From Nanobdellota archaeon (lineage in GTDB: Archaea; Nanobdellota; Nanobdellia; Pacearchaeales; GW2011-AR1): a stretch of 64,000 nt of DNA. Positions 5,887 to 56,022 of the stretch are shown one piece after another. The DNA is taken from NCBI GenBank assembly GCA_038045945.1, contig JBBSXC010000004.1:160001-224000 (forward strand), written 5' to 3'. How positions within the stretch are numbered: the stretch's first letter is position 1; every line of letters begins with the position of its first letter. Position numbers and translations under genes: made by a program. The notes beneath the pieces are model-generated. The model made no database searches and was not told where the DNA came from. It saw only the letters and a program-made list of their open reading frames with translations.

Positions 5887-7407
5887 TTATTTTGATTGAA
5901 TGTTTCTTAAGATATCAGCGAATGCAGGTCTTGTTATGAATATGCCAATACTTATACTTATTATTGTTGTGAAAGCAAAACCCTTCAGTAGTCCTGCGCC
6001 AGTCCAGAATAAAGGAATCATAGCAACAAGAATTGTTGAGAAAGCAGCAAATATTACGAACAAAGCACTTTTAATTTTGTCCTTAATACTTCTCTGAGTA
6101 TCACTGCTTGTTGATTCAGCAAGAATGATTATTTGGTCATTAACACCAGTGCCCATACCCGCTATTATACCAGCAATACTTGGAGCGTCAAGATTCCAAC
6201 CAAGGAAAGCAGCAACTCCCAGAGTTATGAAGGCTTCAGAGAACATAGTTAAGATAACTGATAAAGTAATCTTAATTTTTCTGTACTTAACAAAAATTAT
6301 TATTGAAACAATAGCAAAGACTAATAAGCCAAGAATCAGAATGTTCTTGGTAAACTCTTTACCCAGAGTTGGAGATAAAGTATCAAGCTTAACGATTTCT
6401 AACTTGTAAGGAAGACTACCAGTGATCATTATTGTCTGAAGCTTATTCATTGATGCAGTAGCATCGTTAAATGCCTCTTCTTGGGTTACACCAACACCAG
6501 AACCTTGAACACTAATCTCAGTAGTAACCTGACCCTTCAACCCCTCACTAATAAGTAAGGAATCAGTAACGATACCATCAACCAATAAATCAAGTTGTTT
6601 TTCTAAGTACCTGCCACCAATAGCAGTAGTGTTTAATTTTAGCTTAGAAGTAATATCAGCATGCCTTTGAGCGGCTTCTTGAGACAGATAAACAACGAAT
6701 GAGAATTGACAAAAATAAGTACTATCAGCCTGAGGAGAACAAGATCTGACCCCGGAACATGTAGCATCAAAACGGCAAACATCCGCTATGTCATCAGTAC
6801 CGCCAGTAAATACTGTCTGATTGCCAATTTTAGCCTCAAACTTTCCTTGTTTAGCGACGAGATCTCTAATATCAGCAGGAGTAGCACCAGCCACTTCAAT
6901 AAGCATAAACTTTTGACCAGATAAATCAGTAACAGGCCTTATAGAAATATCAGTTATGCCAAAAACGTTAAGTCTGTTACTAGTAACATCGATCAAGTCG
7001 TTAAGATCATTATCAGTAAGAACACCCTGAGGTCTAACTAACGCCCTAGCACCACCTTGTAAATCAAGGCCGGTCTTTAGTCTAGTTCTAGGCTTATTAC
7101 CAACAGTTATGTTAGGAGTAGAATCACTAAGAATTATGAATTCGCCACTATCAGTATTTATAACATACTTCTTTTCGACAGGCGAAGAAAGATCATTAAT
7201 GATTTTTGAGTAATCATCAAGGCTAGAAACTTCTAAACCGTTAAGCGAATTAATAATCATACCAGACCTTAAACCAGAAGTGTAAGCAGAAGAATTTTTT
7301 TCAACACTCTTAATGACTACACCAGGAGTTAATGAAGGATGAACAGCAACAAGCGCCACTAACAAGAAAATTATTAGTATCCAAACACGAAGACTAATCT
7401 TAAACAT
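5887..7407 (-). CDS. secD: Protein translocase subunit SecD (with PDZ-like insert)
   Basis: GLDLQGG motif, SPTLG, AGIIAGMGTGVNDQIII, LKGFA. Confidence 0.92.
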   Translation of the reverse strand: MFKISLRVWILIIFLLVALVAVHPSLTPGVVIKSVEKNSSAYTSGLRSGMIINSLNGLEVSSLDDYSKIINDLSSPVEKKYVINTDSGEFIILSDSTPNITVGNKPRTRLKTGLDLQGGARALVRPQGVLTDNDLNDLIDVTSNRLNVFGITDISIRPVTDLSGQKFMLIEVAGATPADIRDLVAKQGKFEAKIGNQTVFTGGTDDIADVCRFDATCSGVRSCSPQADSTYFCQFSFVVYLSQEAAQRHADITSKLKLNTTAIGGRYLEKQLDLLVDGIVTDSLLISEGLKGQVTTEISVQGSGVGVTQEEAFNDATASMNKLQTIMITGSLPYKLEIVKLDTLSPTLGKEFTKNILILGLLVFAIVSIIIFVKYRKIKITLSVILTMFSEAFITLGVAAFLGWNLDAPSIAGIIAGMGTGVNDQIIILAESTSSDTQRSIKDKIKSALFVIFAAFSTILVAMIPLFWTGAGLLKGFAFTTIISISIGIFITRPAFADILRNIQSK

Positions 7408-8567
7408 TAGTTTATACCCTTCCTTTTACAGTATAATTTAATTATTCCAGCATTAGTAAGCCATGTATTAATGATATCAGCAAATAACCCAATAGATATA
7501 ACTAAAAATATTTGTCTGAAAGAGTCAGGAAGACCAGTAACTAACAAAAATGCAGGCAGCACAGAAGCTAGAGCAGTAATAGTCATGAATAATCCAGTAT
7601 TAAAAGCGCCTTTAATTCTATGATTAACCGTCCCCTCTCTACTCCTTAAAACTCTATTAGTCAATAAGATGTCAGTATCAACGCTATAACCAATAATCAT
7701 TAAGAAAGCAACAAGACCAGCTGATGACAACTTAACACCCATTAAGTCAACAACAACAGTGACAAAAACTAAGTTTGAGAAAGCAGCAAAAACAACAGCA
7801 ATACTAGGAACACTATTAATTGAGTAAATAATAAGAAGTAATAACAAACTAACAAAAACCATAAAGTACAAAGGATAAAATAATGATGAAAGGAATAATA
7901 AGGCTGATAGTCCAAAGAAGATCTTGTTAATATTTTTCTCCTTACGTATGTTGATAAGTGAATAAATTATTGCTGCTGCACCAATAAGGATAACAAACCC
8001 AAATAAAAACCCGCTAGCAGGGAAAGTAAGCCTCACAGCAGATAATGATAAGAATACGCACAAGGACTTAACAAACTTACTTTCTCCAAAAATTATGAAT
8101 ACTACCAGCCCCATAAGTATGAACGATAACAAAATAACTTTTAGTAGTTCAGAATAAAAAGAAGAACTAATTGAAGGACCGTTAAATTCAGTACTAGAAT
8201 TATCAGAAGTTAAAACGATGCCTAAAGCATCTTCAACTAATGGCTTAAGAACATCAGGATCTAAAGATGACTCAACAACTAAAGCCAAATCAGTATTAGT
8301 GCTTAAGTCACTAAGGCGCTTAAAACCAACATCAGGAATAGCAGCCTTTAGTAATGATTCTGAAAGATCAAGATCATTAAGAACGGATTTTTCACTAATA
8401 GTAACAGTTGTCCCACCAGCCAGAGAAATATCCTTATAGATAAAGTCACCATTAACAGAATAAAAATTTCCTAGGTAGAATAAAGAAGCAATAACTAAGA
8501 CTACAGGAATTAGCAATAAAGCAATATAATACTTGTCATAAAACAAGCCAAATTTTGTTTTTTCCAT
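7407..8567 (-). CDS. secF: Protein translocase subunit SecF
   Basis: DISLAGG, GPSIS, LMIIGYSVDTDILL; directly upstream of secD. Confidence 0.9.
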   Translation of the reverse strand: MEKTKFGLFYDKYYIALLLIPVVLVIASLFYLGNFYSVNGDFIYKDISLAGGTTVTISEKSVLNDLDLSESLLKAAIPDVGFKRLSDLSTNTDLALVVESSLDPDVLKPLVEDALGIVLTSDNSSTEFNGPSISSSFYSELLKVILLSFILMGLVVFIIFGESKFVKSLCVFLSLSAVRLTFPASGFLFGFVILIGAAAIIYSLINIRKEKNINKIFFGLSALLFLSSLFYPLYFMVFVSLLLLLIIYSINSVPSIAVVFAAFSNLVFVTVVVDLMGVKLSSAGLVAFLMIIGYSVDTDILLTNRVLRSREGTVNHRIKGAFNTGLFMTITALASVLPAFLLVTGLPDSFRQIFLVISIGLFADIINTWLTNAGIIKLYCKRKGIN

Positions 8568-8577
8568 TGATTATTTA

Positions 8578-8648
8578 TGCACCCGCCGGGATTTGAACCC
8601 AGGTCGCGAACTTGGAAGGCTCGCATTCTGCCGCTGAACTACGGGTGC
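8578..8648 (-). tRNA. tRNA-Gly(TCC)
   Basis: Reverse complement GCACCCGTAGTTCAGCGGCAGAATGCGAGCCTTCCAAGTTCGCGACCTGGGTTCAAATCCCGGCGGGTGCA folds as a cloverleaf; loop CTTCCAA; no intron, no encoded CCA. Confidence 0.95.
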
Positions 8649-8705
8649 CCAATAGTATAAGAACATTACTAAAGGGTTTTAAAGGTTTCTTATTGAGAGT
8701 TAAAA

Positions 8706-8780
8706 CGCACCCGATAGGATTTGAACCTACGACCAACAGGTTAGGAACCTGCTACTCTATCCAGGCTGAGCTACGGGTGC
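8706..8780 (-). tRNA. tRNA-Arg(CCT)
   Basis: Cloverleaf; anticodon arm GCAGG-TTCCTAA-CCTGT; T loop GTTCAAATC. Confidence 0.95.
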
Positions 8781-8787
8781 AAACCGA

Positions 8788-8871
8788 TGCGGGATATAGG
8801 AATCGAACCTATGCAGGCACTAAGCCCCCGGCTTTTGAGACCGGTCCGTTTGACCGCTCCGGCAATCCCGC
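8788..8871 (-). tRNA. tRNA-Leu(CAA)
   Basis: Cloverleaf with long variable arm GGCTTAGTGCC; anticodon arm CCGGT-CTCAAAA-GCCGG. Confidence 0.95.
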
Positions 8872-8949
8872 CTATGATAAATAGTCGCGGTCAAACACAT
8901 TTAAAAATGTATAGAAAATGCTTTAAAGAAGAATAACAAGTTAAGTTAG

Positions 8950-9783
8950 ATGTCGACATTAGCAGATATAAGAACACTAATAAGATGCGAAAAGAACTGG
9001 CTAATAGCAAAAGTACCAATAAAAGAAAAATTGGCATTCCTAGGAAGACAAGCTTCAGGAATAATAAAAAATTCTAAAAAAATAAAATATTTAGGAAGAA
9101 CACTCCACTATGACAGAAAATGGGAACCCATACTCATAGCAGAATACCCAAATGAGATAGAGATGATAACAAAAAAATTAGACTTCAAAAAAATAAAAAA
9201 TGTTTTAGATATAGGAGCAAACGTAGGACAATGGGGAATAACACTAAAATCATACTTCCCAAACATAGAATTATACTCTTTTGAGCCAGTACCAGAAACC
9301 TTCTGGATACTAAAAGACAATTCTTCAAAAATAAAAAGTTGGGAAGTTTTCAATTACGGAATTAATGAAAAAGATAGCAACAAAAAAATAAGTTATGCGG
9401 TAGGAGCATCAGCAGAAGCAACGTATTTTAAAGAAAACATAAACCAAACACACATAAGAAAAAACGTTAAAGAAATAGATACTAAAACAATAAACCTTAA
9501 AGAAAAAAATAGAAAAAAACTCTCAATACCTAAAAACTTAAGCTTAGTAAAAATAGACGTTGAAGGATCAGAAATGGAAGTCCTAAAAGGACTAACAGAG
9601 ATAAATTATGACTACTTATACATTGAAACATCCATAGGAAGGAGAGGAAGTAGCATTAAAGAAGTAGTAAACTTTTTAGAAAAAAACAAGAAAAGTGTTA
9701 AGGTTTTATTCACTCACAGACCAGATAAACAAGCTAGTAGCGAGAACTCATTACTAGAAATAAAGAATAAAACAAACCTTTAA
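8950..9783 (+). CDS. FkbM family methyltransferase
   Basis: VLDIGANVG, YSFEP, VKIDVEGSE motifs. Confidence 0.9.
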   Translation: MSTLADIRTLIRCEKNWLIAKVPIKEKLAFLGRQASGIIKNSKKIKYLGRTLHYDRKWEPILIAEYPNEIEMITKKLDFKKIKNVLDIGANVGQWGITLKSYFPNIELYSFEPVPETFWILKDNSSKIKSWEVFNYGINEKDSNKKISYAVGASAEATYFKENINQTHIRKNVKEIDTKTINLKEKNRKKLSIPKNLSLVKIDVEGSEMEVLKGLTEINYDYLYIETSIGRRGSSIKEVVNFLEKNKKSVKVLFTHRPDKQASSENSLLEIKNKTNL

Positions 9784-9786
9784 ATA
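9779..9786 (+). promoter_or_regulatory. TATA box of 5S rRNA gene
   Basis: TTTAAATA about 25 bp upstream of the 5S 5' end. Confidence 0.55.
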
Positions 9787-9807
9787 CCGTTAATTCTGCA
9801 TATCTTT

Positions 9808-9921
9808 GAAGACGGCCATAGTGGTTTGGAAACTCCTGATCCCGTTCCGATCTCAGAAGATAAGCTTACCACGTCCGTAGTGTTAGTATCCCACAAGATG
9901 CGAAACTTGGATGCTGTCTTC
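9808..9921 (+). rRNA. rrf: 5S rRNA
   Basis: Terminal helix GAAGACGGC...GCTGTCTTC, CGGCCATAG 5' motif, loop C CCTGATCCCGTTCCGATCTCAGAAGATAAG, GCGAAAC; about 114 nt. Confidence 0.9.
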
Positions 9922-9991
9922 TTCATATTCACTTAATAAGAGATGATAACTTATTCTAAAAGTTTATAACAATAAAAGATCTATATCATTC

Positions 9992-10249
9992 ATGAGTAAG
10001 AATAGAGAACAAATAAAAAAACAAATTATTGAATTCTTCGCTAACATTAAAAGTAAAAGTCCTAAAAACGTGAAAAAGATTAAGACTCACGCAATGTCAA
10101 TAAACCTAAAATTAGGAAAAGAAAGAAAAAAGTTTTGCAAAAAATGTTACCACGTTTATGACAAAAAAGACAAAATTAGAATAACAAACAACACTAAAAA
10201 AGTAGTTTGTAATAATTGTGGGAAAATAAGTACTTGGAAAATAAAATAG
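9992..10249 (+). CDS. rnp4: Ribonuclease P protein component 4 (Rpp21/Rpr2), short form
   Basis: Basic protein, RKKFCKKC...VVCNNCG zinc ribbon. Confidence 0.75.
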   Translation: MSKNREQIKKQIIEFFANIKSKSPKNVKKIKTHAMSINLKLGKERKKFCKKCYHVYDKKDKIRITNNTKKVVCNNCGKISTWKIK

Positions 10250-10279
10250 TTTAAAAACTTCTAATTTGGTGATATATTT

Positions 10280-10831
10280 GTGATTAACAAAAAGGTAAAG
10301 TCATTACTTTTAGCAGACACAGCATGGCTCTTTGGCGAGGGAATGTTAGGGCCGCTTTTCGCAGTTTTTGCTCAAAAAATAGGGGGAGACGTATTAGAAA
10401 TAACTTGGGCTTGGGCAACATACCTAATAGTTGCAGGATTATTAATTGTCATAATAGGAAGAATCTCAGATCAAAAAGTAAACAAGAGAAAATTAGTCTT
10501 CTGGGGATACACACTTAATGCCGCACTAACATTCTGCTATTTATTGGTTAATGGACCTCTAGCGCTACTAGGATTACAAATAGGTTTAGGGGTAGCCGCA
10601 GCTATGGCCACACCAACATGGGACGCATTATACTCAGAATATGGAAACAAAAAGAAGTATGGACTAGAGTGGGGATTATCAGATGGATTTGGAGAAATAT
10701 TTGGTGGTTTAGCAATAATAGCTGGAGGAATAATAGTAAGCTACTTTTCCTTCAACACACTATTCATAATAATGGGGATAGTGCAAATAGTAGCAGTAAT
10801 TTTATTATTACCGATAATAAAGAAAAAATAA
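10280..10831 (+). CDS. Half-size MFS transporter (about 6 TM)
   Basis: MFS motif A-like GRISDQKVNKRK after TM2; six hydrophobic segments; only 183 aa. Confidence 0.75.
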   Translation: MINKKVKSLLLADTAWLFGEGMLGPLFAVFAQKIGGDVLEITWAWATYLIVAGLLIVIIGRISDQKVNKRKLVFWGYTLNAALTFCYLLVNGPLALLGLQIGLGVAAAMATPTWDALYSEYGNKKKYGLEWGLSDGFGEIFGGLAIIAGGIIVSYFSFNTLFIIMGIVQIVAVILLLPIIKKK

Positions 10832-11029
10832 TTATGATTTTTTGAACTTTCCAACTTCTTGAATTAGGTCAACTTGCCCCATGAATGCTGACCTGCAACA
10901 ATACCTACTAAGACCTAAACTGTCAAGAACTGATTCAGCAGATTCTCCATTAGAAGTCCTTTTCCTGAATTCTTCATATAGCTGAGCTATAGGCTTACCA
11001 CATGAAAAGCAGCGCATAGGTATAATCAT
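10832..11029 (-). CDS. rpoN: RNA polymerase subunit Rpo10 (N)
   Basis: MIIPMRCFSCGK...RYCCR signature. Confidence 0.97.
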   Translation of the reverse strand: MIIPMRCFSCGKPIAQLYEEFRKRTSNGESAESVLDSLGLSRYCCRSAFMGQVDLIQEVGKFKKS

Positions 11030-11081
11030 AATAATCAGACCAAAGAAGCGTTTTTAAAGCTTTCTGCCGTTTAATAATAAC

Positions 11082-11774
11082 ATGACAGAAACAGTAATAA
11101 AACTAAAAGGAGTGACTAAGTATTACCGAATGGGAGAAACGGTCGTTAAAGCTATTGATGGAATAGACCTAGAAGTAAAGAAAGGAGACTTCGTAGCAAT
11201 AATGGGGCCTAGTGGAAGCGGGAAAAGCACAGCTATGAACCTAGTAGGAAGTTTAGACCTAGCAACAGGCGGAACAATACAATTAGACGGAGTAAACATA
11301 AACAACCTAAGTGAATCAGACTTAGCACAAATAAGGGGAAGAAGAATAGGATTCATATTCCAACAATTCAACCTAGTACCAAATTTAACAGCAAAAGAAA
11401 ATATTATTCTACCAATGATATTCCAAGAAAAAAGCAAAGCAGAAAGAGAAAAAAAGGCTAAAGAATTACTAAAACTAGTAGACTTAGAAAACAGAGAAGA
11501 CCACTACCCAAACCAACTGTCAGGAGGACAACAACAAAGAGTAGCAATAGCAAGATCATTAGCAAACGACCCAGAAGTAATATTAGCCGACGAACCAACA
11601 GGGAACCTAGACACAAAAAACGGAGAAAAAATAATGAATTTCTTAGAAAAATTACACAAATCAGGAAAGACAATAATAATGGTAACACACGACCCACACC
11701 TAGCAGGTCAGCACGCAAAAACAGTATACTGGGTCAAAGATGGAAAGATAGAAAAAGTAACAAGAAAAAAGTAA
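11082..11774 (+). CDS. ABC transporter ATP-binding protein (LolD/MacB-type)
   Basis: GPSGSGKS, LSGGQQQR, ILADEPTGNLD, VTHD; no permease adjacent. Confidence 0.93.
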   Translation: MTETVIKLKGVTKYYRMGETVVKAIDGIDLEVKKGDFVAIMGPSGSGKSTAMNLVGSLDLATGGTIQLDGVNINNLSESDLAQIRGRRIGFIFQQFNLVPNLTAKENIILPMIFQEKSKAEREKKAKELLKLVDLENREDHYPNQLSGGQQQRVAIARSLANDPEVILADEPTGNLDTKNGEKIMNFLEKLHKSGKTIIMVTHDPHLAGQHAKTVYWVKDGKIEKVTRKK

Positions 11775-11835
11775 GAAGACGAGAATAACACTAAAGTAGA
11801 GAAAACTTTAAAAGAGGCAATTAATTACGACCGTA

Positions 11836-12030
11836 ATGAAGAAGTGTGTTTATTGCAAAACAGAGTTAAAAGAAGATGTAGTTCTTGAAGTATGCATAAA
11901 CTGCGGTCGAGGAATATGGGGAGAAAAAATGTTTAACACAATAGTGAAAAGCATGGAAGACGCAGACAGCAGAGGAAGTCTAATGCAAGGAAGCGTAGGA
12001 TCAGACAACCAAGGGAAAAAGGCAATTTAA
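11836..12030 (+). CDS. Small zinc-finger protein, hypothetical
   Basis: CVYC...CINC; TATA-like TTTAAAA upstream. Confidence 0.65.
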   Translation: MKKCVYCKTELKEDVVLEVCINCGRGIWGEKMFNTIVKSMEDADSRGSLMQGSVGSDNQGKKAI

Positions 12031-12189
12031 AAACAAAGATAATTCTTTTAAACAAAAAAAAGAGGAATATCCCAAAAAGAGGGGTAGAGGTAACGATGTG
12101 TCTGAAGAAAAATCAGAGATTCACCACATAACAAAGCTTAAAAAGCCTGCTTGAGAAATAATTTTGAATACTCAGGAAAAATAAGAAAA

Positions 12190-12441
12190 ATGATAAAAAG
12201 AAAACAAGTAAAACAACGAGGAAAAATAAGACTTAGCGAATACTTCAAAAATTTGAAGGATGGAGAAAGAGTAGCAATAGTCAGAGAACTATCAGAAAAC
12301 CCAAAATTCCCATACCAATTACAAGGAAGAAGCGGAGTAATAGCAGGAAAAAGAGGAGGAGCATACATAGTAAAAATTATGGATTTTGACCAAGAAAAAA
12401 CACACATAATCCAAGCAATACACCTAAAAAAATTAAAATGA
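12190..12441 (+). CDS. rpl21e: 50S ribosomal protein L21e
   Basis: GERVAI..., GRSGVIAGKRGGAYIV, IHLKKL; ATG 12190 preferred over upstream TTG; precedes rpoF-DUF655 as in other archaea. Confidence 0.92.
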   Translation: MIKRKQVKQRGKIRLSEYFKNLKDGERVAIVRELSENPKFPYQLQGRSGVIAGKRGGAYIVKIMDFDQEKTHIIQAIHLKKLK

Positions 12442-12743
12442 TAATAGAACTAAAACCACTTTCACTAACAGAATCTGAAGAATTAATAGATGATTCACAA
12501 GAAGATAAAAAAGAAATAAAAGCATTCATAAAAAAATTCAGCAAGATTAGCGAAAAAGACGCAAAAAAGTTAAGAGAAGAATTAGAATCATTAGAATCAA
12601 TGAGAGTTAAATCAGAACACATAGCAAAAATCGTAGATATACTACCAGAAGATGCTGAAGACGTAGCAAAAATATTTGTCGATACAAACTTAAACAAAGA
12701 AGAAACAGAGGGGATTCTTGAACTTGTCAAGAAATACAATTAA
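12438..12743 (+). CDS. rpoF: RNA polymerase subunit Rpo4 (F)
   Basis: KIVDILPEDAEDV HRDC-like motif; conserved rpl21e-rpoF-DUF655 order. Confidence 0.88.
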   Translation: MIIELKPLSLTESEELIDDSQEDKKEIKAFIKKFSKISEKDAKKLREELESLESMRVKSEHIAKIVDILPEDAEDVAKIFVDTNLNKEETEGILELVKKYN

Positions 12744-12748
12744 CAACA

Positions 12749-48640: not shown

Positions 48641-48758
48641 AAAAAATATTCTCAGAACCGCATAAAAAGAAAAAGAACAATAATTATCCTACGAGCTAAT
48701 AATACTTATAAACCAACAATTAATCAGTAAAACAGAGGAAGAAAGAACAATAACCATT

Positions 48759-48908: not shown

Positions 48909-48924
48909 AAAAACTAAAAACTAA

Positions 48925-49656
48925 TTATTTCTTAACCTTCTTCTTACTCTTCTTCCTTCTAGGCTTAACAACACGACCATTACCAATACTCCTAGACAAA
49001 GGCTCAATAATCTTAGAAAAAGAATTCTGAGTAGACTGTAAATCACTACCCAAATCCTGAATGTTCTGACCATACTCACCAATCTTACGAATAATAGAAT
49101 CCTGCAAAGTATCAATAATAGACTCTATACGCTTAATCCTTTCCTTAAGAAGAATAATCTTATTATCCGTATCAGACTTAAAATCATCAATCTTAGACAA
49201 CTCAGACTTAATCTTAACAATCTTTTGATCAAACACTTGCTCAGCAATCTCGGAAAAAGCCTCAGAGCCTTGAGGTTGAGAATAAGAATACTGGGGGTAG
49301 TTATCACTAGTAACCACAGGAGAAGAATAGGGCTCATAATAATTCTGATCGGCACTCTGCTGATAAGGAGAATCCTGGGGTGGCTGGAAATTAGGAGAAG
49401 GGGTAGGAGGAGAAAAATTAGAGGGGGCAGGCGCTGGAGGAGCAGAATTATTCATAATACTCTGCTGCATATTAGAATCACTAGAAGGATCACCATGGGG
49501 ATTATACTCCTGAGAAACAGCACTCTTAACCTGAAACTGAGAAAGAGCATCCTCAATCTCACGAGGCATAAAACCCTGATTCCTCAAATCAGTAACGATT
49601 TGAGAATCGGACCTACCAGCAGACTTGAGATCCTCAACCTGTTTAATAAGAGACAT
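48925..49656 (-). CDS. Hypothetical protein: helical N-terminus, Pro/Ser/Gln linker, coiled coil
   Basis: GRSDSQIVTDLRNQGF...IEDAL; low-complexity middle; heptads. Confidence 0.7.
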   Translation of the reverse strand: MSLIKQVEDLKSAGRSDSQIVTDLRNQGFMPREIEDALSQFQVKSAVSQEYNPHGDPSSDSNMQQSIMNNSAPPAPAPSNFSPPTPSPNFQPPQDSPYQQSADQNYYEPYSSPVVTSDNYPQYSYSQPQGSEAFSEIAEQVFDQKIVKIKSELSKIDDFKSDTDNKIILLKERIKRIESIIDTLQDSIIRKIGEYGQNIQDLGSDLQSTQNSFSKIIEPLSRSIGNGRVVKPRRKKSKKKVKK

Positions 49657-50012
49657 TAGAGTTTAGACTCCTGAATAATTCTTTTAACATCATCAACTGT
49701 AGTAAGCTTCAAAGGCTCAAACATACGAGCCTGACGCTGCAAAATCTCCAAATCAGCCTTACGAGCACGAGACTCAACATCCTCAGAAATCCTCCTAACA
49801 GAACCGGTCAACTTATCAACATCATCCCTAACAGCATCAAGAACAGACTTCATAGAAGAAACACCATGGGAAATCTCGGAACGAAAATCAACCAAGTTCT
49901 CACCAATTAAAAGAATCCTTTCTTTGAGAAGCTTATGCTTCTCCTCAAGATCCCTAAGCTTAGCAATAGGAGAGAATTCATCCTGAGAAACAAAACCTTG
50001 TTGTTCAACCAT
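49656..50012 (-). CDS. Coiled-coil hypothetical protein
   Basis: Heptad pattern; translationally coupled to 48925 gene; divergent from pilus ATPase. Confidence 0.7.
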   Translation of the reverse strand: MVEQQGFVSQDEFSPIAKLRDLEEKHKLLKERILLIGENLVDFRSEISHGVSSMKSVLDAVRDDVDKLTGSVRRISEDVESRARKADLEILQRQARMFEPLKLTTVDDVKRIIQESKL

Positions 50013-50171
50013 CTTTATATTATTAAGAATAGGATGATGAGTTTAAAATACTTACTGTCATAAGCAACGACAAAACAAGGTATAGAAAGAGTTTTTAATA
50101 ACACAAAACATCAAAACAATGAGCAACGAAACAAAGAAATTTGTTTAAGCAAAAAAAGAAGGAAAAAAATA

Positions 50172-52478
50172 ATGTTATTCAAAAAAGAGACACAACAATA
50201 CGGATACGAAATTATCAGAGAAAGCGGACAAGACATAATGTACATCAACTTCCTAAAAGTACCATTCGTGCCATCGATAGCAGAACAAGGACAAATAATG
50301 GCAAGAATAATAGACTACCTAATAGAAAACCCGAACACATCAAGAATAGTACTAGTACAACAAAGAAACTACAGCCACTCATTCTCACAAGTAAGCCTAC
50401 TAACAGAAATAGCAAGCTTATACAACACACTAATACAACAAGTAGGGCTACTAAGAGTCGACCCCAGAACACAAAACATTTGCAGAGAATGCACAGAAAG
50501 AAGAAACAAAAACATGACATACTTCCTAAGCATACTAAAACAAGACCCAATAGCAGCATACTACGAAATAAAAAGATTCAGAAACGAAGAAGAAGGAAAA
50601 ATAAATGTATCAGAACAAAAATGCAGAACGATAATAAACGACAACATAAGAGTAATAGAAAGAACAACAATGCTACTAGAATCAACAAGCATATACAAAA
50701 AACTAGAATCATCACTACCATATTACAAATTCGGTGAAAGAGAAATATACAACAATGTTCTACAACCAGACGTAGTACCAAACTTTACATTCACAAGACT
50801 CCTTGCATCACTACCAACAGACGCAGAAATAGTAAAACAATACCAAATAGCAGAAGGAAGCGACGAAAGCACAGTAACAATAATGAAAAAGAAAGACGAC
50901 CTAAAATACTTCTACCACCTAATGCCGCCAGAATACTCGTTAAGTGAAGACCATTACTACCTGCTAAACCTAGCAAGAAACGTACTAGTAGAACACGCAC
51001 CAAAAAACGAAGAATTCACAGACCCAGAAAGAACAAGACACGTATTCATAAACGTAAGCAAAGATCTCCTAAGAGAATTAGCCGCAAACAAAGGAGTAGC
51101 AATAAGCTACCAAGACCTAGAAAAATTAGCAAACATACTAGTGAGACACACAATAGGATTCGGAATACTAGAAGTATTACTACAAGACGAAAACATACAA
51201 GACATGATGCTAAACGCACCAGCAAGCATAAACCAAATATTCATAAAACACGGAGAATTCGACGAATGCGTAACAAACATAATACCAAGCCAAGAAGACG
51301 TACAATCGTGGGCAGCAAAATTCAGAATACTATCAGGAAGACCACTAGACGAAGCAAACCCGGTACTAGACACAAACTTGGAACTCGGAAGAATGAGTGC
51401 GAGAGTAGCAATAATACAACAGCCACTATCGCCAAACGGATTAGCATACGCATTTCGAAGACACAGAGACAACCCATGGACACTACCACTATTCATAAAA
51501 AACAAAATGTTAAGCCCACTAGCAGCAGGACTACTATCATTCCTAATAGATGGAGCAAGAACATTCCTAGTAGCAGGAACAAGAAGCAGCGGAAAAACAT
51601 CACTACTAGGAGCACTAATGCTAGAGATAATGCCCAAGTACAGAGTAATAGTACTAGAAGACACACTAGAACTACCAGTAGAGGCACTAAGAGAAATAGG
51701 GTACGATATTCTAAGAATGAAAGTAAGAAGCGCACTACTAGAAAAAACAAGCGAAGTAGCAGCAGACGAAGGAATAAGAACCTCGCTTAGACTAGGAGAC
51801 TCATCACTTATAGTTGGAGAAGTAAGAAGCATAGAAGCAAGAGCACTATACGAAGCAATGAGAGTAGGAGCACTAGCAAACGTAGTAGCTGGAACAATAC
51901 ACGGAGCATCACCATATGGAGTATTCGACAGAGTAGTAAACGACCTAGAAGTACCAGCAACAAGCTTCAAAGCAACAGACCTAATAATAATAGCAAACCC
52001 AGTAAGAAGCGCAGACGGACAAAAAAGCTACAGACGCATGATACAACTAACAGAAGTAAGAAAGGGATGGAGTAAAGATCCTGAAGAAGAACACGGATTC
52101 GTAGACCTACTAAGATACAACGTAGAAAAAGACATGCTAGAACCAACAGACGAACTAATAAACGGAGACAGCGAAGTAATAAAAGCAATAGCAGCAAACG
52201 TAAAAGGGTGGGCGGGAAACTGGGACGCAGTATGGGACAACATCCAACTAAGAGCAAAAATAAAAGAAGAAATAGTAAAACAAGCAGAAAAAAACAAAAC
52301 ACCAGAATTATTAGAAGCAAAATTCAACAGCTTAAGCAACTCAGCATTCTACAAAATAAGCGAAAAAGTAACAAAACAAGAAGGACTACCAAAAAGCGAA
52401 ATAGTATTCCCGCAATGGGAAGAATGGCTAAAACAAAAAATAAAAGAAATAAAAAGCGGGAAGAATAAAGAAGATTAG
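50172..52478 (+). CDS. Type IV pilus / type II secretion ATPase (VirB11/TadA family)
   Basis: Walker A GTRSSGKT, LEDTLEL, SLRLG....IVGEVRS.EA, GTIHG. Confidence 0.93.
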   Translation: MLFKKETQQYGYEIIRESGQDIMYINFLKVPFVPSIAEQGQIMARIIDYLIENPNTSRIVLVQQRNYSHSFSQVSLLTEIASLYNTLIQQVGLLRVDPRTQNICRECTERRNKNMTYFLSILKQDPIAAYYEIKRFRNEEEGKINVSEQKCRTIINDNIRVIERTTMLLESTSIYKKLESSLPYYKFGEREIYNNVLQPDVVPNFTFTRLLASLPTDAEIVKQYQIAEGSDESTVTIMKKKDDLKYFYHLMPPEYSLSEDHYYLLNLARNVLVEHAPKNEEFTDPERTRHVFINVSKDLLRELAANKGVAISYQDLEKLANILVRHTIGFGILEVLLQDENIQDMMLNAPASINQIFIKHGEFDECVTNIIPSQEDVQSWAAKFRILSGRPLDEANPVLDTNLELGRMSARVAIIQQPLSPNGLAYAFRRHRDNPWTLPLFIKNKMLSPLAAGLLSFLIDGARTFLVAGTRSSGKTSLLGALMLEIMPKYRVIVLEDTLELPVEALREIGYDILRMKVRSALLEKTSEVAADEGIRTSLRLGDSSLIVGEVRSIEARALYEAMRVGALANVVAGTIHGASPYGVFDRVVNDLEVPATSFKATDLIIIANPVRSADGQKSYRRMIQLTEVRKGWSKDPEEEHGFVDLLRYNVEKDMLEPTDELINGDSEVIKAIAANVKGWAGNWDAVWDNIQLRAKIKEEIVKQAEKNKTPELLEAKFNSLSNSAFYKISEKVTKQEGLPKSEIVFPQWEEWLKQKIKEIKSGKNKED

Positions 52479-52616
52479 ACTTTTATTTTTTGTTTTAGAT
52501 AGAAATTTAATTATCTGCTAATCAACCCATTCTAAATAATGTTGCCTTGATCTTTTGTGGACTAGGTTTTTCTTTATGGCACATATAACGGTAGTATCTG
52601 TATTCACAACTACACC

Positions 52617-52853
52617 TCATCTTTCTTCACTTCTTTTTTCAAGATAAGCCGCAACTCCAAAAGCCGTAAGGCTAATACCTAAAACTACGGCTGTTGGGCC
52701 TAAAAGTTCCGGATCATAAACTTTTGCGCCCTGTTCGTTTGGACCAATAAAATCGCCAACACCCTTAAGCAGGCCATAATAAGTTCCAGCCATAACTGAC
52801 CCGCCAAATAGCAAGGCTAAGTCTAGCTTTGAGAGTCTTCTTCTTTCATTCAT
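52617..52853 (-). CDS. Small two-TM protein
   Basis: SD GGAGGT upstream; two hydrophobic segments. Confidence 0.6.
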   Translation of the reverse strand: MNERRRLSKLDLALLFGGSVMAGTYYGLLKGVGDFIGPNEQGAKVYDPELLGPTAVVLGISLTAFGVAAYLEKRSEER

Positions 52854-52915
52854 TTTTTACCTCCAAAATATTTATTCATTACTACCATGTACTCCTCAAA
52901 GCCTTTTGAATCTAA

Positions 52916-52936
52916 GTTGTTATTAAACATAACAAC
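52916..52936. promoter_or_regulatory. Inverted repeat, candidate TrmB operator
   Basis: GTTGTTAT-N5-ATAACAAC in the divergent intergenic region. Confidence 0.5.
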
Positions 52937-52966
52937 AATTAAAAAGCTAAAAATCAATGTTTTCAT

Positions 52967-53695
52967 ATGGATATTTATGAACAGTTAGGAGAAGCTGGCC
53001 TAACAGGTAATGAATCAAAAGTTTACAAGGAATTATTGGTAAGGGGTCAGTCTTCAGCAAATAGGATAGCAAAACAACTATCAATGGATAGAACACTAAG
53101 CTATACTGTACTAAACCACCTAATAGAAAAGGGATTGGTGAGTTATACTGTAAAAGAAGGTAAAAAATTCTTTGAAGCATCAAATCCCAAAAATCTCTTA
53201 AACCAAGTAAAGAAAAAAGAGCTAATAATAGGAGAATTAATAAAAGAGTTAAGTAAAATAAAAAAAAATTCTAATTCGCCTTTAGAAATTAATGTGTATG
53301 AAGGAAGAGAGGGACTAAGGAGTTGGTTCAACTTCGTTCTAGATAAGAGTAAAGAGTTCTTATCATTTGGAGCAACTGGAAAAGCATTTTATGAACTTTA
53401 TGAAATGCCTGCACTAACAAAAAACGTAAAAAAGATGAAGCTAAAAGTAAGAATCGTAGGCAACAAGGAACATCAAAAAACAGAAGCATTCAATGTGCCT
53501 CATGTAGAATATAGGTATTTAGACGTTAAGTCAGAGGCAACAACATCGATATTTGGAGAATACATTTCAATACATCTCATAAAAGAAAAACCATTCATAA
53601 TACTAATAAAAAATAAGGAAATAGCAGAAAGTTACAAGAACTATTTTGAGGTCTTATGGTCCAGCGCTAAGAAATATAAAGTGGGGAAAGCATAA
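52967..53695 (+). CDS. TrmB-family transcriptional regulator
   Basis: GLTGNESKVY..LL, Y.VL..L.EKGLV wHTH, VYEG.EG, A.SY..YFE.LW. Confidence 0.9.
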   Translation: MDIYEQLGEAGLTGNESKVYKELLVRGQSSANRIAKQLSMDRTLSYTVLNHLIEKGLVSYTVKEGKKFFEASNPKNLLNQVKKKELIIGELIKELSKIKKNSNSPLEINVYEGREGLRSWFNFVLDKSKEFLSFGATGKAFYELYEMPALTKNVKKMKLKVRIVGNKEHQKTEAFNVPHVEYRYLDVKSEATTSIFGEYISIHLIKEKPFIILIKNKEIAESYKNYFEVLWSSAKKYKVGKA

Positions 53696-53720
53696 AATAT
53701 GGTCGTAAAGAGGTGTGAAA

Positions 53721-55883
53721 ATGGCGTATAATGATGATGAAACAAGAAGAATAATAGAAAAGTATGAAAGAAAACTAGGAAACCAAATAAACCTAAGCAA
53801 CACAAGAACAAATTCTGGAATAGGGGGAGTAGATATGTCACGAGAATACTCACAATTCAAAGAAGAAATGATACCTCAAATATCAAGATACGAAAGACTA
53901 TGCAAAAGCCTAGGAAGCATAATAACAGTAAAAGTATCAAGCAAAGACGAAGGAAAAATACAAAGATCACTAGACATAGCACACCTAGAAATAACGCCGG
54001 GAGAATCATTTGGTCTGGCAATAATGGCATTACTAATAGTAATGATACTAGGAATAATAAGCGCGACAATAATATACCTACTAACAAACGAAATATCACT
54101 ATCATTTATTTTCTTATCATTCCTAACAGCAATATTTTTGTTCTATTACTATTACTCAACACCAGAAAGATTAGCAAACAAATGGAGACTGAAAGCAAGC
54201 AGCCAAATGGTACCATGCATGCTATACGTAGTAGCATACATGAAACACACAAGCAACTTAGAAAGAGCAATACAATTTGTAAGCCAAAACCTACCAGCAC
54301 CACTATCACTAGACTTCAAAAAAGTATTCTACGATGTAGAAACAGGAAGATACTCGAGCATAAAGGAAAGCCTAGACCATTACTTAGAAACATGGAGAGA
54401 TTACAGCATAGAATTCGTAGAAAGCTTCCACTTAGTAGAAAGCAGCTTGTACGAACCAGATGAATCGGAAAGACTCAGAATACTAGAAAGATCACTGCAG
54501 GTAATACTAGATGGAGTATACGAAAAAATGTTAAAGTTCAGCCATGAAGTAAGAAGCCCATTAACAAACCTATACATGCTAGGAATAGTACTACCAACAC
54601 TAGGGCTAGCACTACTGCCACTGGCAAGCGCACTACTAGGAGGAATAGTAAAATGGTACCACATAGTACTATTATTCAACATAATAATACCATTAGGAGT
54701 ATTTTATCTGTCAAGCCAAATAATGCTAAAAAGGCCAGGAGGATACGGAGAAACAGACACACTAGAAAAAAATCCTTATTACCCAGAATACAAATCAACA
54801 AGTCATTATTGGAAAGCACTAATAATAGTACTACCACTAATAATACTAGGACTATCACCACTGTTCATAACACAAATAATAGGACAAGACCCGAAAATGA
54901 CAGACCTAGGACTAAGCATATTCGGACCAGTAAAAGTTTTTGATTACCAAACAGCAGCAAACGGAAAAGTGACAGGGCCATTTGGGCTAGGGGCACTAAT
55001 ACTAAGCTTATTCTTACCATTAGGAATAGCAATGTTTTTCGCAATAGCATACAAAGCAAAAACAAAAAATTTGATACAGGCACGCGAAAAATCAAAAAGT
55101 TTAGAAGAAGAATTCGCAAGTTCACTATTCCAACTAGGAAACAGAATAGGTGACGGAACACCAGCAGAATTAGCATTCGGAAAAGTAGCAGAATCATCAA
55201 AAGGACAAATAACAGCAGAATTCTTCAACGTAGTAAACATAAACATAAAACAAGTAGGAATGAGCCTAGAAGAAGCAATATTCAATAATTCAAGAGGAGC
55301 AATAATATACTACCCATCAAACCTGATAGCAACAAGCATGAGAATCCTCACAGAAAGCGTAAAGAAAGGCCTGGCTGTAGCTGCAAGAAGCCTAATGAGC
55401 ATAAGCGAATACATAAAAAACATACACAAAATAAACGAAAGACTAAGAGATTTATTAGCAGAAGTAGTATCAGACATGAAAAGCAACATGACATTCCTAG
55501 CACCACTACTATCGGGAATAGTACTTGGGCTAGCATTCATGATAACAGCAATACTATCAAGACTAGAACTACTATTCCAAGCAGGAGGAGACCAAGCGAT
55601 AGAAGGATTCGGAAATTTGTCATCAATACTAACAATATTCGACCTAAAATCAATGATACCACCATACTTCCTACAAGCATCAATAGGAATATACATAATA
55701 GAAATAGCATTCATACTAACAAACGCGCTAGTAACAGTAGACTCTGGAGAAGACGAACTAAAAAAAACAAACGAGCTAGGAAAAAACCTAAAAACAGGAA
55801 TAATACTATACATAATAGTAGCACTAATATCAACAGTAACACTAGCAATACTAGCATCAGTAGCTTTGAAAGGTGTAGGTTAG
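53721..55883 (+). CDS. Type IV pilus platform membrane protein (TadB/TadC, T2SS-F-like, double domain)
   Basis: Two repeats of cytoplasmic helical domain plus TMs (SNLERAI; QLGNRIGDGTPAELA); SD GAGGTG; follows ATPase. Confidence 0.8.
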   Translation: MAYNDDETRRIIEKYERKLGNQINLSNTRTNSGIGGVDMSREYSQFKEEMIPQISRYERLCKSLGSIITVKVSSKDEGKIQRSLDIAHLEITPGESFGLAIMALLIVMILGIISATIIYLLTNEISLSFIFLSFLTAIFLFYYYYSTPERLANKWRLKASSQMVPCMLYVVAYMKHTSNLERAIQFVSQNLPAPLSLDFKKVFYDVETGRYSSIKESLDHYLETWRDYSIEFVESFHLVESSLYEPDESERLRILERSLQVILDGVYEKMLKFSHEVRSPLTNLYMLGIVLPTLGLALLPLASALLGGIVKWYHIVLLFNIIIPLGVFYLSSQIMLKRPGGYGETDTLEKNPYYPEYKSTSHYWKALIIVLPLIILGLSPLFITQIIGQDPKMTDLGLSIFGPVKVFDYQTAANGKVTGPFGLGALILSLFLPLGIAMFFAIAYKAKTKNLIQAREKSKSLEEEFASSLFQLGNRIGDGTPAELAFGKVAESSKGQITAEFFNVVNINIKQVGMSLEEAIFNNSRGAIIYYPSNLIATSMRILTESVKKGLAVAARSLMSISEYIKNIHKINERLRDLLAEVVSDMKSNMTFLAPLLSGIVLGLAFMITAILSRLELLFQAGGDQAIEGFGNLSSILTIFDLKSMIPPYFLQASIGIYIIEIAFILTNALVTVDSGEDELKKTNELGKNLKTGIILYIIVALISTVTLAILASVALKGVG

Positions 55884-56022
55884 TGTTAAAATCATAAATC
55901 GTGTCAGCATGAAACAGCAACAACACTAAAAAGGAACAGTTTAAGAAATAATAGCTCCTAAAGAGTAGGTAATAAAGAAGAAATATTTATAAAGAAGAAT
56001 AAACACTCTAAAATAGAAGAAG

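What the first reader, a model, noticed from the sequence alone, without database searches (positions are those of the whole stretch)
5887..56000. Extreme A/C versus G/T strand bias that does not invert at the cdc6 origin
Seen (qualitatively): + strand core genes use almost only A/C-ending codons (CTA, GTA, ACA, GAC, AAC, TTC) both left (12-16 kb) and right (33-38, 50-56 kb) of oriC. Minus-strand core genes use T/G-ending codons on both sides (secDF, xerA; 39-41, 44-45, 49 kb). The + strand is therefore A/C-rich regardless of gene direction. The bias visibly relaxes at genes A and B (27.6-29.3 kb). Established: bidirectional origins normally coincide with a skew inversion. Inference: replication may be effectively unidirectional, with initiation and termination near the A/B-oriC locus, which would also place xerA near the terminus. 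Alternatives are an inactive origin or an inversion ending at oriC.
Basis: partly seen in the sequence, partly recalled or inferred. Interest (0 to 1): 0.75.

Follow-up and report, generated by a model that had tools for sequence, protein, structure and literature searches.

The report
Whole-chromosome one-polarity strand bias, Pacearchaeote
In this tiny groundwater archaeon one DNA strand is rich in A and C along the whole chromosome, whichever way the genes point and without reversing at its single replication origin, which suggests the chromosome is copied mostly in one direction.

Summary
In the window, 63 of 69 ORFs have A+C above 50% at third codon positions of the + strand, on both sides of the Orc1/Cdc6 origin and for both gene orientations. 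None of the 7 contigs (847 kb) changes sign. Three joins link 757 kb into one polarity.

This is a lineage trait. None of 47 related cdc6 loci inverts. Contigs of 648-764 kb, one of them a closed 660-kb circle, keep one sign.

The amplitude in those relatives is two-level. It is about twice as strong in the half downstream of cdc6, with the break roughly opposite the origin in three of the four. So oriC probably fires and a counter-fork exists.

My best reading is strongly lopsided, mostly one-way replication rather than strictly unidirectional replication.

This genome has the opposite polarity to nearly all relatives. It also carries NucS, which is very rare in the order.

The relaxed bias at genes A and B is a property of those gene families, not a terminus mark.

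This scan has noted the same phenomenon in other DPANN genomes. I found no published report of it.

The parts
1..64000 (.). Stretch of the chromosome-wide strand asymmetry. The + strand is A/C-rich at third codon positions whatever the gene direction. The finding's range 5887-56000 lies inside it.
   Evidence: 63 of 69 ORFs have AC3 above 0.5. The whole contig C4 (304 kb) keeps GC3 below 0 in 31 of 31 10-kb bins and AT3 above 0 in 30 of 31.
31644..31923 (.). oriC core: inverted ORB-like 29-nt arms (31644-31672 and 31895-31923) around an AT-rich unwinding element (about 31700-31767). A further ORB-like copy lies near 31797-31812.
   Evidence: (I1, I2) and 56: this is the only cluster of the ORB-like core in the 847-kb assembly. 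ORB-like cores within 650 bp upstream of cdc6 in 34 of 41 loci, and an AT-rich 60-mer (55 or more A/T of 60) upstream of cdc6 in 39 of 41.
31981..33222 (+). orc1/cdc6, the only copy in the genome. It is coded on the A/C-rich strand (AC3 0.78).
   Evidence: Cdc6_lid 8.5e-25, Cdc6_C 5.8e-23; 1 match in the genome.
33227..38297 (+). DNA polymerase D small (33227-34807) and large (34812-38297) subunits. They have some of the strongest bias in the window (AC3 0.87 and 0.88).
27612..31294 (.). Conserved gene cluster on the left flank of oriC: A (27612-28235 +), B (28506-29333 -), 29388-29759 (-), 30279-30857 (-) and a PRC-barrel gene (31034-31294 -). A, B and 29388 look like coiled-coil or winged-HTH proteins. 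The non-conserved ORF 29731-30246 lies inside the range.
   Evidence: homologues of A, B, 29388, 30279 and PRC in 38, 40, 43, 60 and 64 of 80 cdc6 loci; only sub-threshold HTH hits; the families are specific to Nanobdellota; the relaxed bias of A recurs in relatives.
22950..23693 (+). NucS/EndoMS mismatch endonuclease. It is rare in this order and is found otherwise only in the one other surveyed genome with uniform reversed polarity.
   Evidence: NucS_C 1e-33, NucS_N 9.5e-16.
16829..17668 (-). XerA-like tyrosine recombinase, 14 kb left of oriC.
   Evidence: Phage_integrase 4.1e-44. No dif site was sought.

Best explanation
The chromosome carries a mutational strand asymmetry. It lies on the transition axis (A and C on one strand, G and T on the other), is independent of gene direction, and has the same polarity around essentially the whole circle.

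Most likely the asymmetry is linked to replication, and replication from the single canonical Orc1/Cdc6 origin is strongly lopsided. The fork that leaves oriC through cdc6-polD copies most or all of the circle in most rounds. The counter-fork contributes only a minority share and, when it runs, meets the main fork roughly opposite the origin. One and the same strand is then the leading-strand template almost everywhere, so the sign never flips and only the amplitude steps.

Hand estimates from the two amplitude levels: the far half is copied by the cdc6-direction fork in about 0.67-0.77 of rounds in four relatives and about 0.85 here.

Shown:
- the uniform sign;
- its independence of gene strand;
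- its recurrence in the order;
- the two-level amplitude in relatives;
- the canonical, conserved origin.

Inferred:
- that replication is the cause;
- the mixture of one-way and two-way rounds;
- the fork direction.

In this genome the polarity is opposite to nearly all relatives: the cdc6 strand is A/C-rich rather than G/T-rich. I read this as a flipped mutational sign rather than a flipped fork direction, because the stronger half is still the one downstream of cdc6.
For: 1. Independence of gene strand. On C4, third-position AT skew is +0.50 for + genes and +0.38 for - genes, and GC skew is -0.30 and -0.23, with 54% of coding bases on +. Genome-wide, 94.4% of 975 ORFs have AC3 above 0.5 after orienting the contigs.

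2. No switch. GC3 keeps the contig's sign in 87 of 87 10-kb bins, and AT3 in 86 of 87.

3. Joins, all preserving polarity:
- C5(+) to C4(+): 16S positions 1-493 end C5 and 23S positions 1859-2987 begin C4.
- C3(+) to C5(+): same-genus contig G001_C11.
- rc(C1) to C3(+): a 53-nt overlap at 96% identity.

4. Relatives near cdc6. Of 47 cdc6 loci, 17 have the same sign on both sides, 21 are significant on one side only, 9 are weak and 0 invert.

5. Long relatives. One sign is kept in 19 of 20 samples on G061:C1 (764 kb), 19 of 20 on G062:C1 (760 kb), 10 of 10 on G063:C1 (660 kb) and 10 of 10 on G064:C1 (648 kb). G063:C1 has an exact 55-bp end/start overlap, so it is circular.

6. Two-level amplitude, first versus second half downstream of cdc6:
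- G061: +0.167 / +0.097
- G062: +0.129 / +0.070
- G063: +0.165 / +0.075
- G064: +0.127 / +0.056
Spearman rho runs from -0.49 to -0.67. A step fits better than a line in 4 of 4.

7. In G000, AC3 falls with distance downstream of oriC along the inferred chain (rho -0.21, p 1e-10 for all ORFs; rho -0.28, p 4e-5 for core ORFs).

8. In hand parametrisations, the uniform part and the stepping part have the same sign in all six genomes where both can be estimated (G000, G003, G061-G064). One process would give that.

9. A reversed skew sign relative to the origin is already known in haloarchaea (PMC2841640, Fig. 2 legend).
Against: - No direct evidence of fork direction.
- The origin has the symmetric, inverted-ORB anatomy of two-way origins.
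- The step at oriC is not sharp at the 10-kb scale. In G063 the 10 kb upstream of cdc6 has the stronger bias (+0.26 against +0.13). Among the 47 loci neither side is consistently stronger.
- In G000 the amplitude profile is patchy, and within contig C4 it peaks 10-70 kb right of oriC rather than stepping cleanly.
- In G061 the amplitude break coincides with the contig wrap, and that genome has a second contig of at least 206 kb.
- Some relatives behave differently. G003 (same family) inverts at cdc6. G059 and G067 have no strand component. G066 changes sign about 130 kb from cdc6.
- Same-genus G001 lacks the bias.
- The relatives were sampled, not read in full: 52%, 53%, 30% and 31% of the four long contigs.
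- Gene calls are crude.
Confidence: 0.45

Rival explanations
1. Replication is canonical two-way replication from oriC with balanced arms. That gives the small stepping component. A second, unknown process that always treats the same physical strand differently gives the larger uniform component. Candidates are a rolling-circle or strand-displacement phase, or transcript-primed one-way synthesis as in ColE1 plasmids and mitochondria.
For: - The two-level profile breaks near 50% of the circle in G062, G063 and G064.
- The origin anatomy is symmetric.
- The uniform part is of similar size (about 0.10-0.13, hand calculation) in G003 and G061-G064, although the stepping part differs.
- 23S rRNA lies on the same strand as cdc6 in G062, G063 and G064, and in G000 if the C5-to-C4 join holds.
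Against: - No candidate machinery was found or specifically searched for (no Rep/nickase search was run).
- Both components flip sign together in G000. Two independent processes need not do that.
- This model is arithmetically equivalent to the mixture model, so these data cannot separate the two.
Confidence: 0.25
2. Replication is strictly unidirectional theta replication starting and ending at oriC. Differences in amplitude along the circle come from gene age, islands and local mutation rates.
For: - The sign is uniform everywhere it was examined in G000, and in all but one near-zero sample each on G061 and G062.
- Low-bias patches in G000 coincide with non-conserved or orphan genes, for example 38316-39194 with no family and no homologue.
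- Unidirectional cellular replicons with the terminus next to the origin are known (Pseudoalteromonas chromids, PMC7858055 abstract).
Against: - The step near the antipode recurs in 3 of 4 long relatives and is not expected under strict one-way replication.
- The gradient in G000 persists in core genes only (bins, rho -0.28).
- G003 shows that the same origin type can give a sign switch.
Confidence: 0.12
3. Replication is ordinary two-way replication from another origin. Both switch points lie in assembly gaps, and the cdc6-linked origin is inactive.
For: - Contig orientation is arbitrary, and 90 kb (C2, C6, C7) are unplaced.
- G066 changes sign away from cdc6.
- Contigs of many relatives break just upstream of cdc6.
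Against: - At least 617 kb, and probably 757 kb, of 847 kb have one polarity.
- The contig breaks are explained by rRNA, a repeated large-gene family and a low-complexity repeat.
- There is only one ORB cluster and one Cdc6.
- A closed relative has no switch in 10 of 10 samples.
Confidence: 0.05
4. The pattern is an artefact or a recent rearrangement: a misassembly, or an inversion with one end at oriC, brought two like-skewed arms together.
For: Inverted repeats exist at the origin.
Against: - The arms are only 29 nt long and 76% complementary.
- The order A, B..., PRC, oriC, cdc6, polD is shared with same-genus G001 and with 38-64 of 80 related loci.
- Four runs hold the 10 kb across oriC, with 1.00, 0.97, 0.75 and 0.40 of the sampled words. 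They come from one study, and two may be the source sample.
- The pattern recurs in independent assemblies of other genera.
Confidence: 0.02

Closest known systems
Replication-associated strand compositional asymmetry of bacteria and single-origin archaea (Lobry-type GC/AT skew, e.g. Borrelia, Pyrococcus)
   Same: The bias is independent of gene orientation, is strongest at third codon positions and in intergenic DNA, and lies on the A/C versus G/T axis. It is strong enough to shift first and second codon positions as well.
   Different: - There is no sign inversion at the origin or anywhere else in 847 kb.
- The oriented whole-assembly AT skew is 0.218. In one survey the maxima were 0.047 (AT) and 0.053 (GC) among 112 bacterial chromosomes and 0.038 (GC) among 49 archaeal chromosomes (PMC2780954, passages).
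- The polarity is opposite to relatives.
Unidirectionally replicating chromids of Pseudoalteromonas (PMC7858055)
   Same: A large circular cellular replicon whose skew keeps one sign around the circle. In the chromids the terminus lies next to the origin (abstract).
   Different: - Those are plasmid-derived secondary replicons of bacteria, and there the direction was shown by experiment.
- Here it is the main, only chromosome of an archaeon, with a canonical Orc1/Cdc6-ORB origin, no experimental evidence, and in relatives a second amplitude step opposite the origin.
- In that survey 77 of 16,103 large bacterial replicons were predicted to be unidirectional (section 6). Its Table S1 could not be seen.
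Vertebrate mitochondrial H/L-strand asymmetry (strand-displacement replication)
   Same: A whole-molecule, single-polarity A/C versus G/T asymmetry of comparable strength, attributed to deamination of C and A on the strand left single (recalled; review PMC3269012, passages).
   Different: - The molecule is 50 times larger and is cellular.
- The amplitude profile in relatives is step-like rather than a gradient.
- UDG and endonuclease V are present.
Pyrococcus/Thermococcales-type oriC (ORB-DUE-ORB upstream of cdc6-polD)
   Same: The same gene order (cdc6, DP1, DP2), with inverted ORB-like elements flanking an AT-rich stretch.
   Different: In Pyrococcus the skew switches at this origin (recalled). 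Here it does not.
Inverted GC skew of haloarchaea (PMC2841640)
   Same: The sign of the skew relative to the origin is opposite to that of bacteria and other archaea (Fig. 2 legend). This is a precedent for lineage-specific polarity such as G000 against its relatives.
   Different: Haloarchaeal skews are weak and do invert at origins.

Membership tests
Lobry-type two-replichore strand asymmetry | Bias at neutral sites that follows the DNA strand, not the gene direction | tested here: met
   + and - genes have the same sign in the contig frame.
Lobry-type two-replichore strand asymmetry | Sign inversion at the replication origin | tested here: not met
   (window); 0 of 47 related cdc6 loci invert. 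G003 does invert.
Lobry-type two-replichore strand asymmetry | Second sign inversion at a terminus, with two arms of similar size | tested here: not met
   no switch in 87 bins; 617-757 of 847 kb in one polarity; a closed relative has one sign in 10 of 10 samples. Only an amplitude step is seen.
Unidirectionally replicating circular replicon | Skew of one sign around the whole circle (monotonic cumulative skew) | tested here: met
   The relatives were sampled at 30-53% of their length.
Unidirectionally replicating circular replicon | Read-depth sawtooth with a jump at the origin, and the terminus next to the origin | not testable with these tools
   only assembled contigs are kept for the runs.
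Unidirectionally replicating circular replicon | Uniform amplitude, with no second discontinuity opposite the origin | tested here: not met
   the profile is two-level, with the break at 38-58% of the contig in G062, G063 and G064. In G000 it is only a noisy decline.
Archaeal Orc1/Cdc6-dependent oriC | orc1/cdc6 next to inverted ORB elements flanking an AT-rich unwinding element | tested here: met
Archaeal Orc1/Cdc6-dependent oriC | Conservation of the element in relatives | tested here: met
   (ORB-like cores within 650 bp upstream in 34 of 41 loci; AT-rich 60-mer in 39 of 41). (flanking genes conserved).
Archaeal Orc1/Cdc6-dependent oriC | Initiation of replication at the site | not testable with these tools
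   The only indirect hint is that the amplitude falls with distance measured from it.
Mitochondrial-type strand-displacement asymmetry | Amplitude rising linearly with the time a site stays single-stranded | tested here: inconclusive
   a step is preferred to a line in 4 of 4 relatives (AIC difference 1.0-7.2). G000 is too patchy to tell.

The most novel reading that the evidence does not exclude
Many Pacearchaeales copy their only chromosome mostly one way from a textbook Orc1/Cdc6 origin. If so, these would be, as far as my searches show, the first cellular main chromosomes reported to break Chargaff's second rule genome-wide at mitochondrial strength.

Which strand ends up G/T-rich would be set by the repair repertoire. 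Acquiring the NucS/EndoMS mismatch endonuclease would flip the polarity. In this genome it may also have amplified the bias.
Probability: 0.3. Interest if true: 0.85.

Novelty: new variant of a known kind. Interest (0 to 1): 0.75.

Why it matters
Current surveys conclude that archaeal chromosomes obey within-strand parity and largely lack strand-specific mutation or repair (PMC12999951, abstract and passages; bioRxiv 10.1101/2023.11.15.567178, abstract start in a listing).

Here an archaeal chromosome shows a strand bias 4-5 times the largest whole-chromosome value in one survey of cellular genomes. It has one sign all round and runs through a canonical origin.

If the cause is lopsided fork usage, it changes how Orc1 origins are thought to work. 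It also affects how skew is used to check DPANN assemblies, how origins are predicted, and how codon and amino-acid composition are modelled in phylogenies of these fast-evolving lineages.

The question can be tested directly with read depth from closed genomes.

Tried and rejected
1. Loss of deamination repair as the cause of the extreme amplitude. G000 has UDG (C4:230530-230982) and endonuclease V (C7:47649-48110), as does the unskewed same-genus G001. The unskewed G059 has neither.

2. Different polymerase set. PolB is present in 5 of 5 genomes tested, and PolD is in the window.

3. A second origin. There is no other cluster of the ORB-like core in the assembly and only one Cdc6.

4. A and B as recently acquired genes or a terminus mark. 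They are conserved neighbours of oriC, and their orthologues are also weakly skewed in relatives (for example A +0.09 against a locus value of +0.49 in L150).

5. Origin asymmetry as a cause. The ORB cores are near-palindromic, and their layout does not separate uniform from inverting genomes.

6. Coverage test.

7. The sign change in G066 at about 170-200 kb could not be localised, because the bias there is too weak.

8. The genome search with the rRNA models found nothing in G000, although cmscan on the contig ends did. Absence calls from that tool are therefore weak for truncated genes.

9. Two extra pieces of the closed relative (L260, L261) could not be analysed at third positions, because the script machine was lost. 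Their raw skews are confounded by gene direction.

10. Literature searches for a prior report found none. Supplementary tables, such as Table S1 of PMC7858055, could not be seen.
Full report
**Observation**

The window is G000:C4:160001-224000 of an 847,022-bp, 7-contig assembly. The assembly is 93% complete with 1% contamination. It belongs to the Pacearchaeota/Pacearchaeales, judging by the names of related records.

- Window AT skew is +0.264 and GC skew is -0.017.
- I used a crude gene caller (longest ORFs of 70 aa or more, chosen greedily). With it, 63 of 69 window ORFs have A+C above 50% at third codon positions read on the + strand. Inside the finding's range the count is 51 of 57.
- Left of the origin, AC3 is 0.71 for + genes and 0.64 for - genes. 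Right of it, AC3 is 0.79 and 0.80.
- So the sign is the same for both gene orientations and on both sides of 31.7 kb.

**The origin**

- 31981-33222 is Orc1/Cdc6, followed by PolD DP1 and DP2. It is the only Cdc6_C match in the genome.
- Upstream lie inverted ORB-like 29-nt arms (31644-31672 and 31895-31923) around an AT-rich stretch.
- The degenerate ORB core occurs 20 times in the assembly but clusters only here.
- The anatomy recurs in relatives: an AT-rich 60-mer (55 or more A/T of 60) upstream of cdc6 in 39 of 41 loci, and ORB-like cores within 650 bp upstream in 34 of 41.
- The flanking genes A, B, 29388, 30279 and PRC have homologues in 38, 40, 43, 60 and 64 of 80 cdc6 loci. Many of those loci are cut short on that side.
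- The junction across oriC is therefore ancestral. It is not a misassembly or a recent inversion.

**The whole genome**

- Whole contigs have AT skews of +0.17 to +0.23 (C3, C4, C5) or -0.20 to -0.39 (C1, C2, C6, C7). On the four contigs longer than 60 kb, coding is split about evenly between strands (54-56% on +).
- On C4, third-position AT skew is +0.50 for + genes and +0.38 for - genes. GC skew is -0.30 and -0.23. Intergenic AT skew is +0.20.
- In 10-kb bins, GC3 keeps the contig's sign in 87 of 87 bins, and AT3 in 86 of 87. The exception is -0.02 at C4:50-60 kb.
- After orienting the contigs, 94.4% of 975 ORFs have AC3 above 0.5. Pooled values are AC3 0.708, AT3 +0.46 and GC3 -0.30. The 239 ORFs with a homologue in relative G059 give AC3 0.744.
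- The oriented assembly has AT skew 0.218 and GC skew -0.048.
- For scale, a survey gives maxima of 0.047 (AT) and 0.053 (GC) among 112 bacterial chromosomes and 0.038 (GC) among 49 archaeal chromosomes (PMC2780954, passages).

**Could the switch points hide in the gaps?**

The contig ends are explained by other things.

- C5 ends in 16S rRNA positions 1-493 on the + strand. C4 begins with 23S positions 1859-2987 on the + strand. A split rRNA operon would therefore join C5(+) to C4(+).
- Same-genus contig G001_C11 runs from C5:5870-2515 into C3:249369-246076. That joins C3(+) to C5(+).
- The first 53 nt of C1 match the reverse complement of the first 53 nt of C3 at 96%, inside a low-complexity repeat. 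That suggests rc(C1) joins C3(+). This is the weakest of the three joins.
- All three joins keep the polarity. They give 617 kb on good evidence and 757 of 847 kb in all.
- The other ends lie in a repeated large-gene family, with exact shared 55-mers. C2, C6 and C7 (90 kb) remain unplaced.
- Two balanced arms are excluded.

**Relatives near cdc6**

I took the 80 cdc6 loci, oriented with cdc6 on the + strand. Of these, 47 have at least 5 kb on both sides.

For each locus I regressed per-gene third-position keto skew, (G+T-A-C)/N, on side and gene strand. I counted a side as significant if its skew exceeded both 0.10 and 2 bootstrap standard errors.

- 17 loci have the same sign on both sides. 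In 16 of them the cdc6 strand is G/T-rich; in one (L123) it is A/C-rich.
- 21 loci are significant on one side only.
- 9 loci are weak.
- No locus inverts.
- G000 by the same method gives -0.28 on the left and -0.64 on the right.

**Long contigs of relatives**

These were sampled in 20-kb pieces, taking the mean of + and - genes.

- G061:C1 (764 kb): GC3 is clearly positive in 19 of 20 samples (+0.11 to +0.46; the first sample is +0.01).
- G062:C1 (760 kb): AT3 is positive in 19 of 20.
- G063:C1 (660 kb): one sign in 10 of 10. It has an exact 55-bp end/start overlap, so it is circular.
- G064:C1 (648 kb): a weak signal, with GC3 positive in 10 of 10.

Exceptions:

- G003 (same family) inverts at cdc6 and again between 20 and 100 kb.
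- G059 (575 kb, read in full) and G067 have no strand component.
- G066 changes sign diffusely at about 170-200 kb, not at cdc6.
- Same-genus G001 shows no such bias. I examined 20 of its 40 contigs (263 kb); they are syntenic with G000 at 64-80% nucleotide identity.

**Amplitude**

I put the samples in the cdc6-strand frame and ordered them by distance downstream of oriC. The keto skew never changes sign apart from one near-zero sample (-0.01 in G062). It is, however, roughly twice as strong in the first half as in the second:

| Genome | First half | Second half | Spearman rho | p |
|---|---|---|---|---|
| G061 | +0.167 | +0.097 | -0.64 | 0.0025 |
| G062 | +0.129 | +0.070 | -0.53 | 0.016 |
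| G063 | +0.165 | +0.075 | -0.67 | 0.033 |
| G064 | +0.127 | +0.056 | -0.49 | 0.15 |

- A step model beats both a line and a constant by AIC in 4 of 4 genomes.
- The break falls at 46-53% of the contig in G062, 47-58% in G063 and 38-52% in G064. In G061 it coincides with the contig wrap, and that genome has a further contig of at least 206 kb.
- In G000, along the inferred chain, AC3 falls from 0.80 just right of oriC to 0.57-0.65 just left of it (rho -0.21, p 1e-10 for all ORFs; rho -0.28, p 4e-5 for core ORFs). The profile is patchy, and within C4 it peaks 10-70 kb right of oriC.

I read the data as a uniform part plus a smaller part that steps at oriC and near the antipode. Because the uniform part is larger, the sign never flips.

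**Model**

One replication-linked mutational asymmetry combined with unequal fork use reproduces this pattern.

- If the cdc6-direction fork always runs and the counter-fork runs in only a fraction of rounds, the far half keeps the same sign at reduced amplitude.
- By hand, from the levels, the far half is copied by the cdc6-direction fork in 0.67, 0.77, 0.73 and 0.72 of rounds in G061 to G064. The bins give about 0.85 in G000.
- Arithmetically this cannot be told apart from two-way replication plus an unknown uniform process.
- I prefer the single process because the uniform and stepping parts have the same sign in all six genomes where I can estimate both (G000, G003, G061-G064). In G000 both are reversed.

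**Polarity**

- In G062, G063 and G064, cdc6 and 23S rRNA lie on the G/T-rich strand.
- In G000, cdc6, the ribosomal-protein genes and (if the C5-to-C4 join holds) the rRNA operon lie on the A/C-rich strand. That strand carries 53% of coding bases.
- The stronger half is still the one downstream of cdc6. So I infer that the mutational sign is reversed, not the fork direction.
- A reversed skew sign is already known in haloarchaea (PMC2841640, Fig. 2 legend).

A post-hoc lead concerns NucS.

- G000 carries NucS/EndoMS at 22950-23693.
- A strong NucS match was found in only 2 of the 48 genomes with a polarity estimate: G000 and G066 (46% identical over the full length).
- These are the two uniform genomes of reversed polarity. 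L104, which is weakly reversed, lacks it.
- The chance that both carriers fall among the 3 genomes with negative values on both sides is 3/1128, or 0.003. This is a hand calculation, made post hoc, and related genomes are not independent.
- In an even sample of 201 genomes of the order, only G000 has a strong match, and one other genome has a weak partial match.
- Against the idea, a recent paper argues that NucS cannot act in a strand-specific way (PMC12999951, discussion passage).

**Rejected ideas**

- Loss of UDG or endonuclease V as the cause.
- A difference in PolB.
- A second ORB cluster.
- A and B as a terminus mark. Their orthologues are weakly skewed in strongly skewed relatives of the other polarity too, for example A at +0.06 to +0.14 against locus values of +0.33 to +0.49 in six loci.

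**Literature**

- My searches found no report of a Pacearchaeota or Woesearchaeota skew anomaly, or of a unidirectionally replicating archaeal chromosome.
- Chen et al. 2020 state that 18 of 224 RefSeq archaea, plus one DPANN genome, show the bacterial peaked pattern (PMC7111523, passages).
- Paravel et al. 2026 report within-strand G=C parity over 874 archaeal replicons and conclude that archaea largely lack strand-specific mutation or repair (PMC12999951, abstract and passages). That text does not mention DPANN.
- The nearest cellular precedent is the set of unidirectional Pseudoalteromonas chromids (PMC7858055, abstract and section 6).
- This scan has repeatedly noted the same bias in other DPANN genomes, including three Orc1 origins 'without skew switch'.

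**Limits**

- Gene calls are crude and may include shadow ORFs.
- Relatives were sampled at 30-53% of contig length.
- The chain of G000 contigs is partly inferred.
- No read-depth test was possible.
- The script machine was lost. Two further pieces of the closed relative remain unanalysed, and all later numbers are hand calculations from earlier outputs.
- Supplementary tables of the cited papers could not be seen.

Noticed in passing
window 22950-23693 (+): A NucS/EndoMS mismatch endonuclease. A strong match occurs in only 1 of 201 sampled genomes of the order (this one), plus one genome reached through loci (G066, 46% identical). Those two are the only 'uniform' genomes with reversed skew polarity.
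   Followed up: partly
window 27612-31294: A conserved gene cluster on the left flank of oriC across the order. A and B are coiled-coil plus winged-HTH-like proteins of Nanobdellota-specific families, with short coding tandem repeats (GVQT x3, PTDR x3). A third small wHTH-like gene lies at 29388-29759. Their function is unknown, and they are candidates for origin-associated DNA binders.
   Followed up: partly
window 24963-27611: About 2.6 kb with only small ORFs and weak bias. It includes three tandem small membrane-protein ORFs (26636-26773, 26890-27030, 27032-27211) and palindrome-like repeats (TGTTTAAACA type) at 27386-27468, just upstream of gene A.
   Followed up: no
window 38316-39194 (-): An orphan 292-aa gene directly after polD. 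It has no family and essentially no homologue in the fetched relatives, and no strand bias (AC3 0.50) amid genes at 0.84-0.93. It looks like a recent insertion.
   Followed up: partly
G000:C5:59866-60344 and G000:C4:1-1114 (outside the window): The 16S (5' 493 nt) and 23S (3' 1129 nt) rRNA fragments lie at two contig ends, so the rRNA operon is the assembly gap. The genome search with the same Rfam models reported no match, which is a false negative for truncated genes. A sub-threshold RNase P match (49 bits against a cut-off of 84) lies at C4:2325-2672.
   Followed up: partly
G000 contig ends: C2, C6, C3 right, C4 right (about 290-304 kb), C5 left, C7 right: A family of large repeated genes (paralogues 70-87% identical, with exact shared 55-mers) breaks the assembly. 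C2 and C6 consist largely of it.
   Followed up: no
relatives: In many related assemblies the contig starts within about 2 kb upstream of cdc6 (for example G006, G020, G023, G027, G035, G036, G049, G052, G054). The origin region is evidently hard to assemble in this clade.
   Followed up: no
G001_C5 against G000 C1:43846-47812 and C7:504-1151: The same-genus relative places a homologue of the C7 start next to the middle of C1. That indicates a rearrangement between the two genomes, in an orientation that would oppose the G000 polarity.
   Followed up: no
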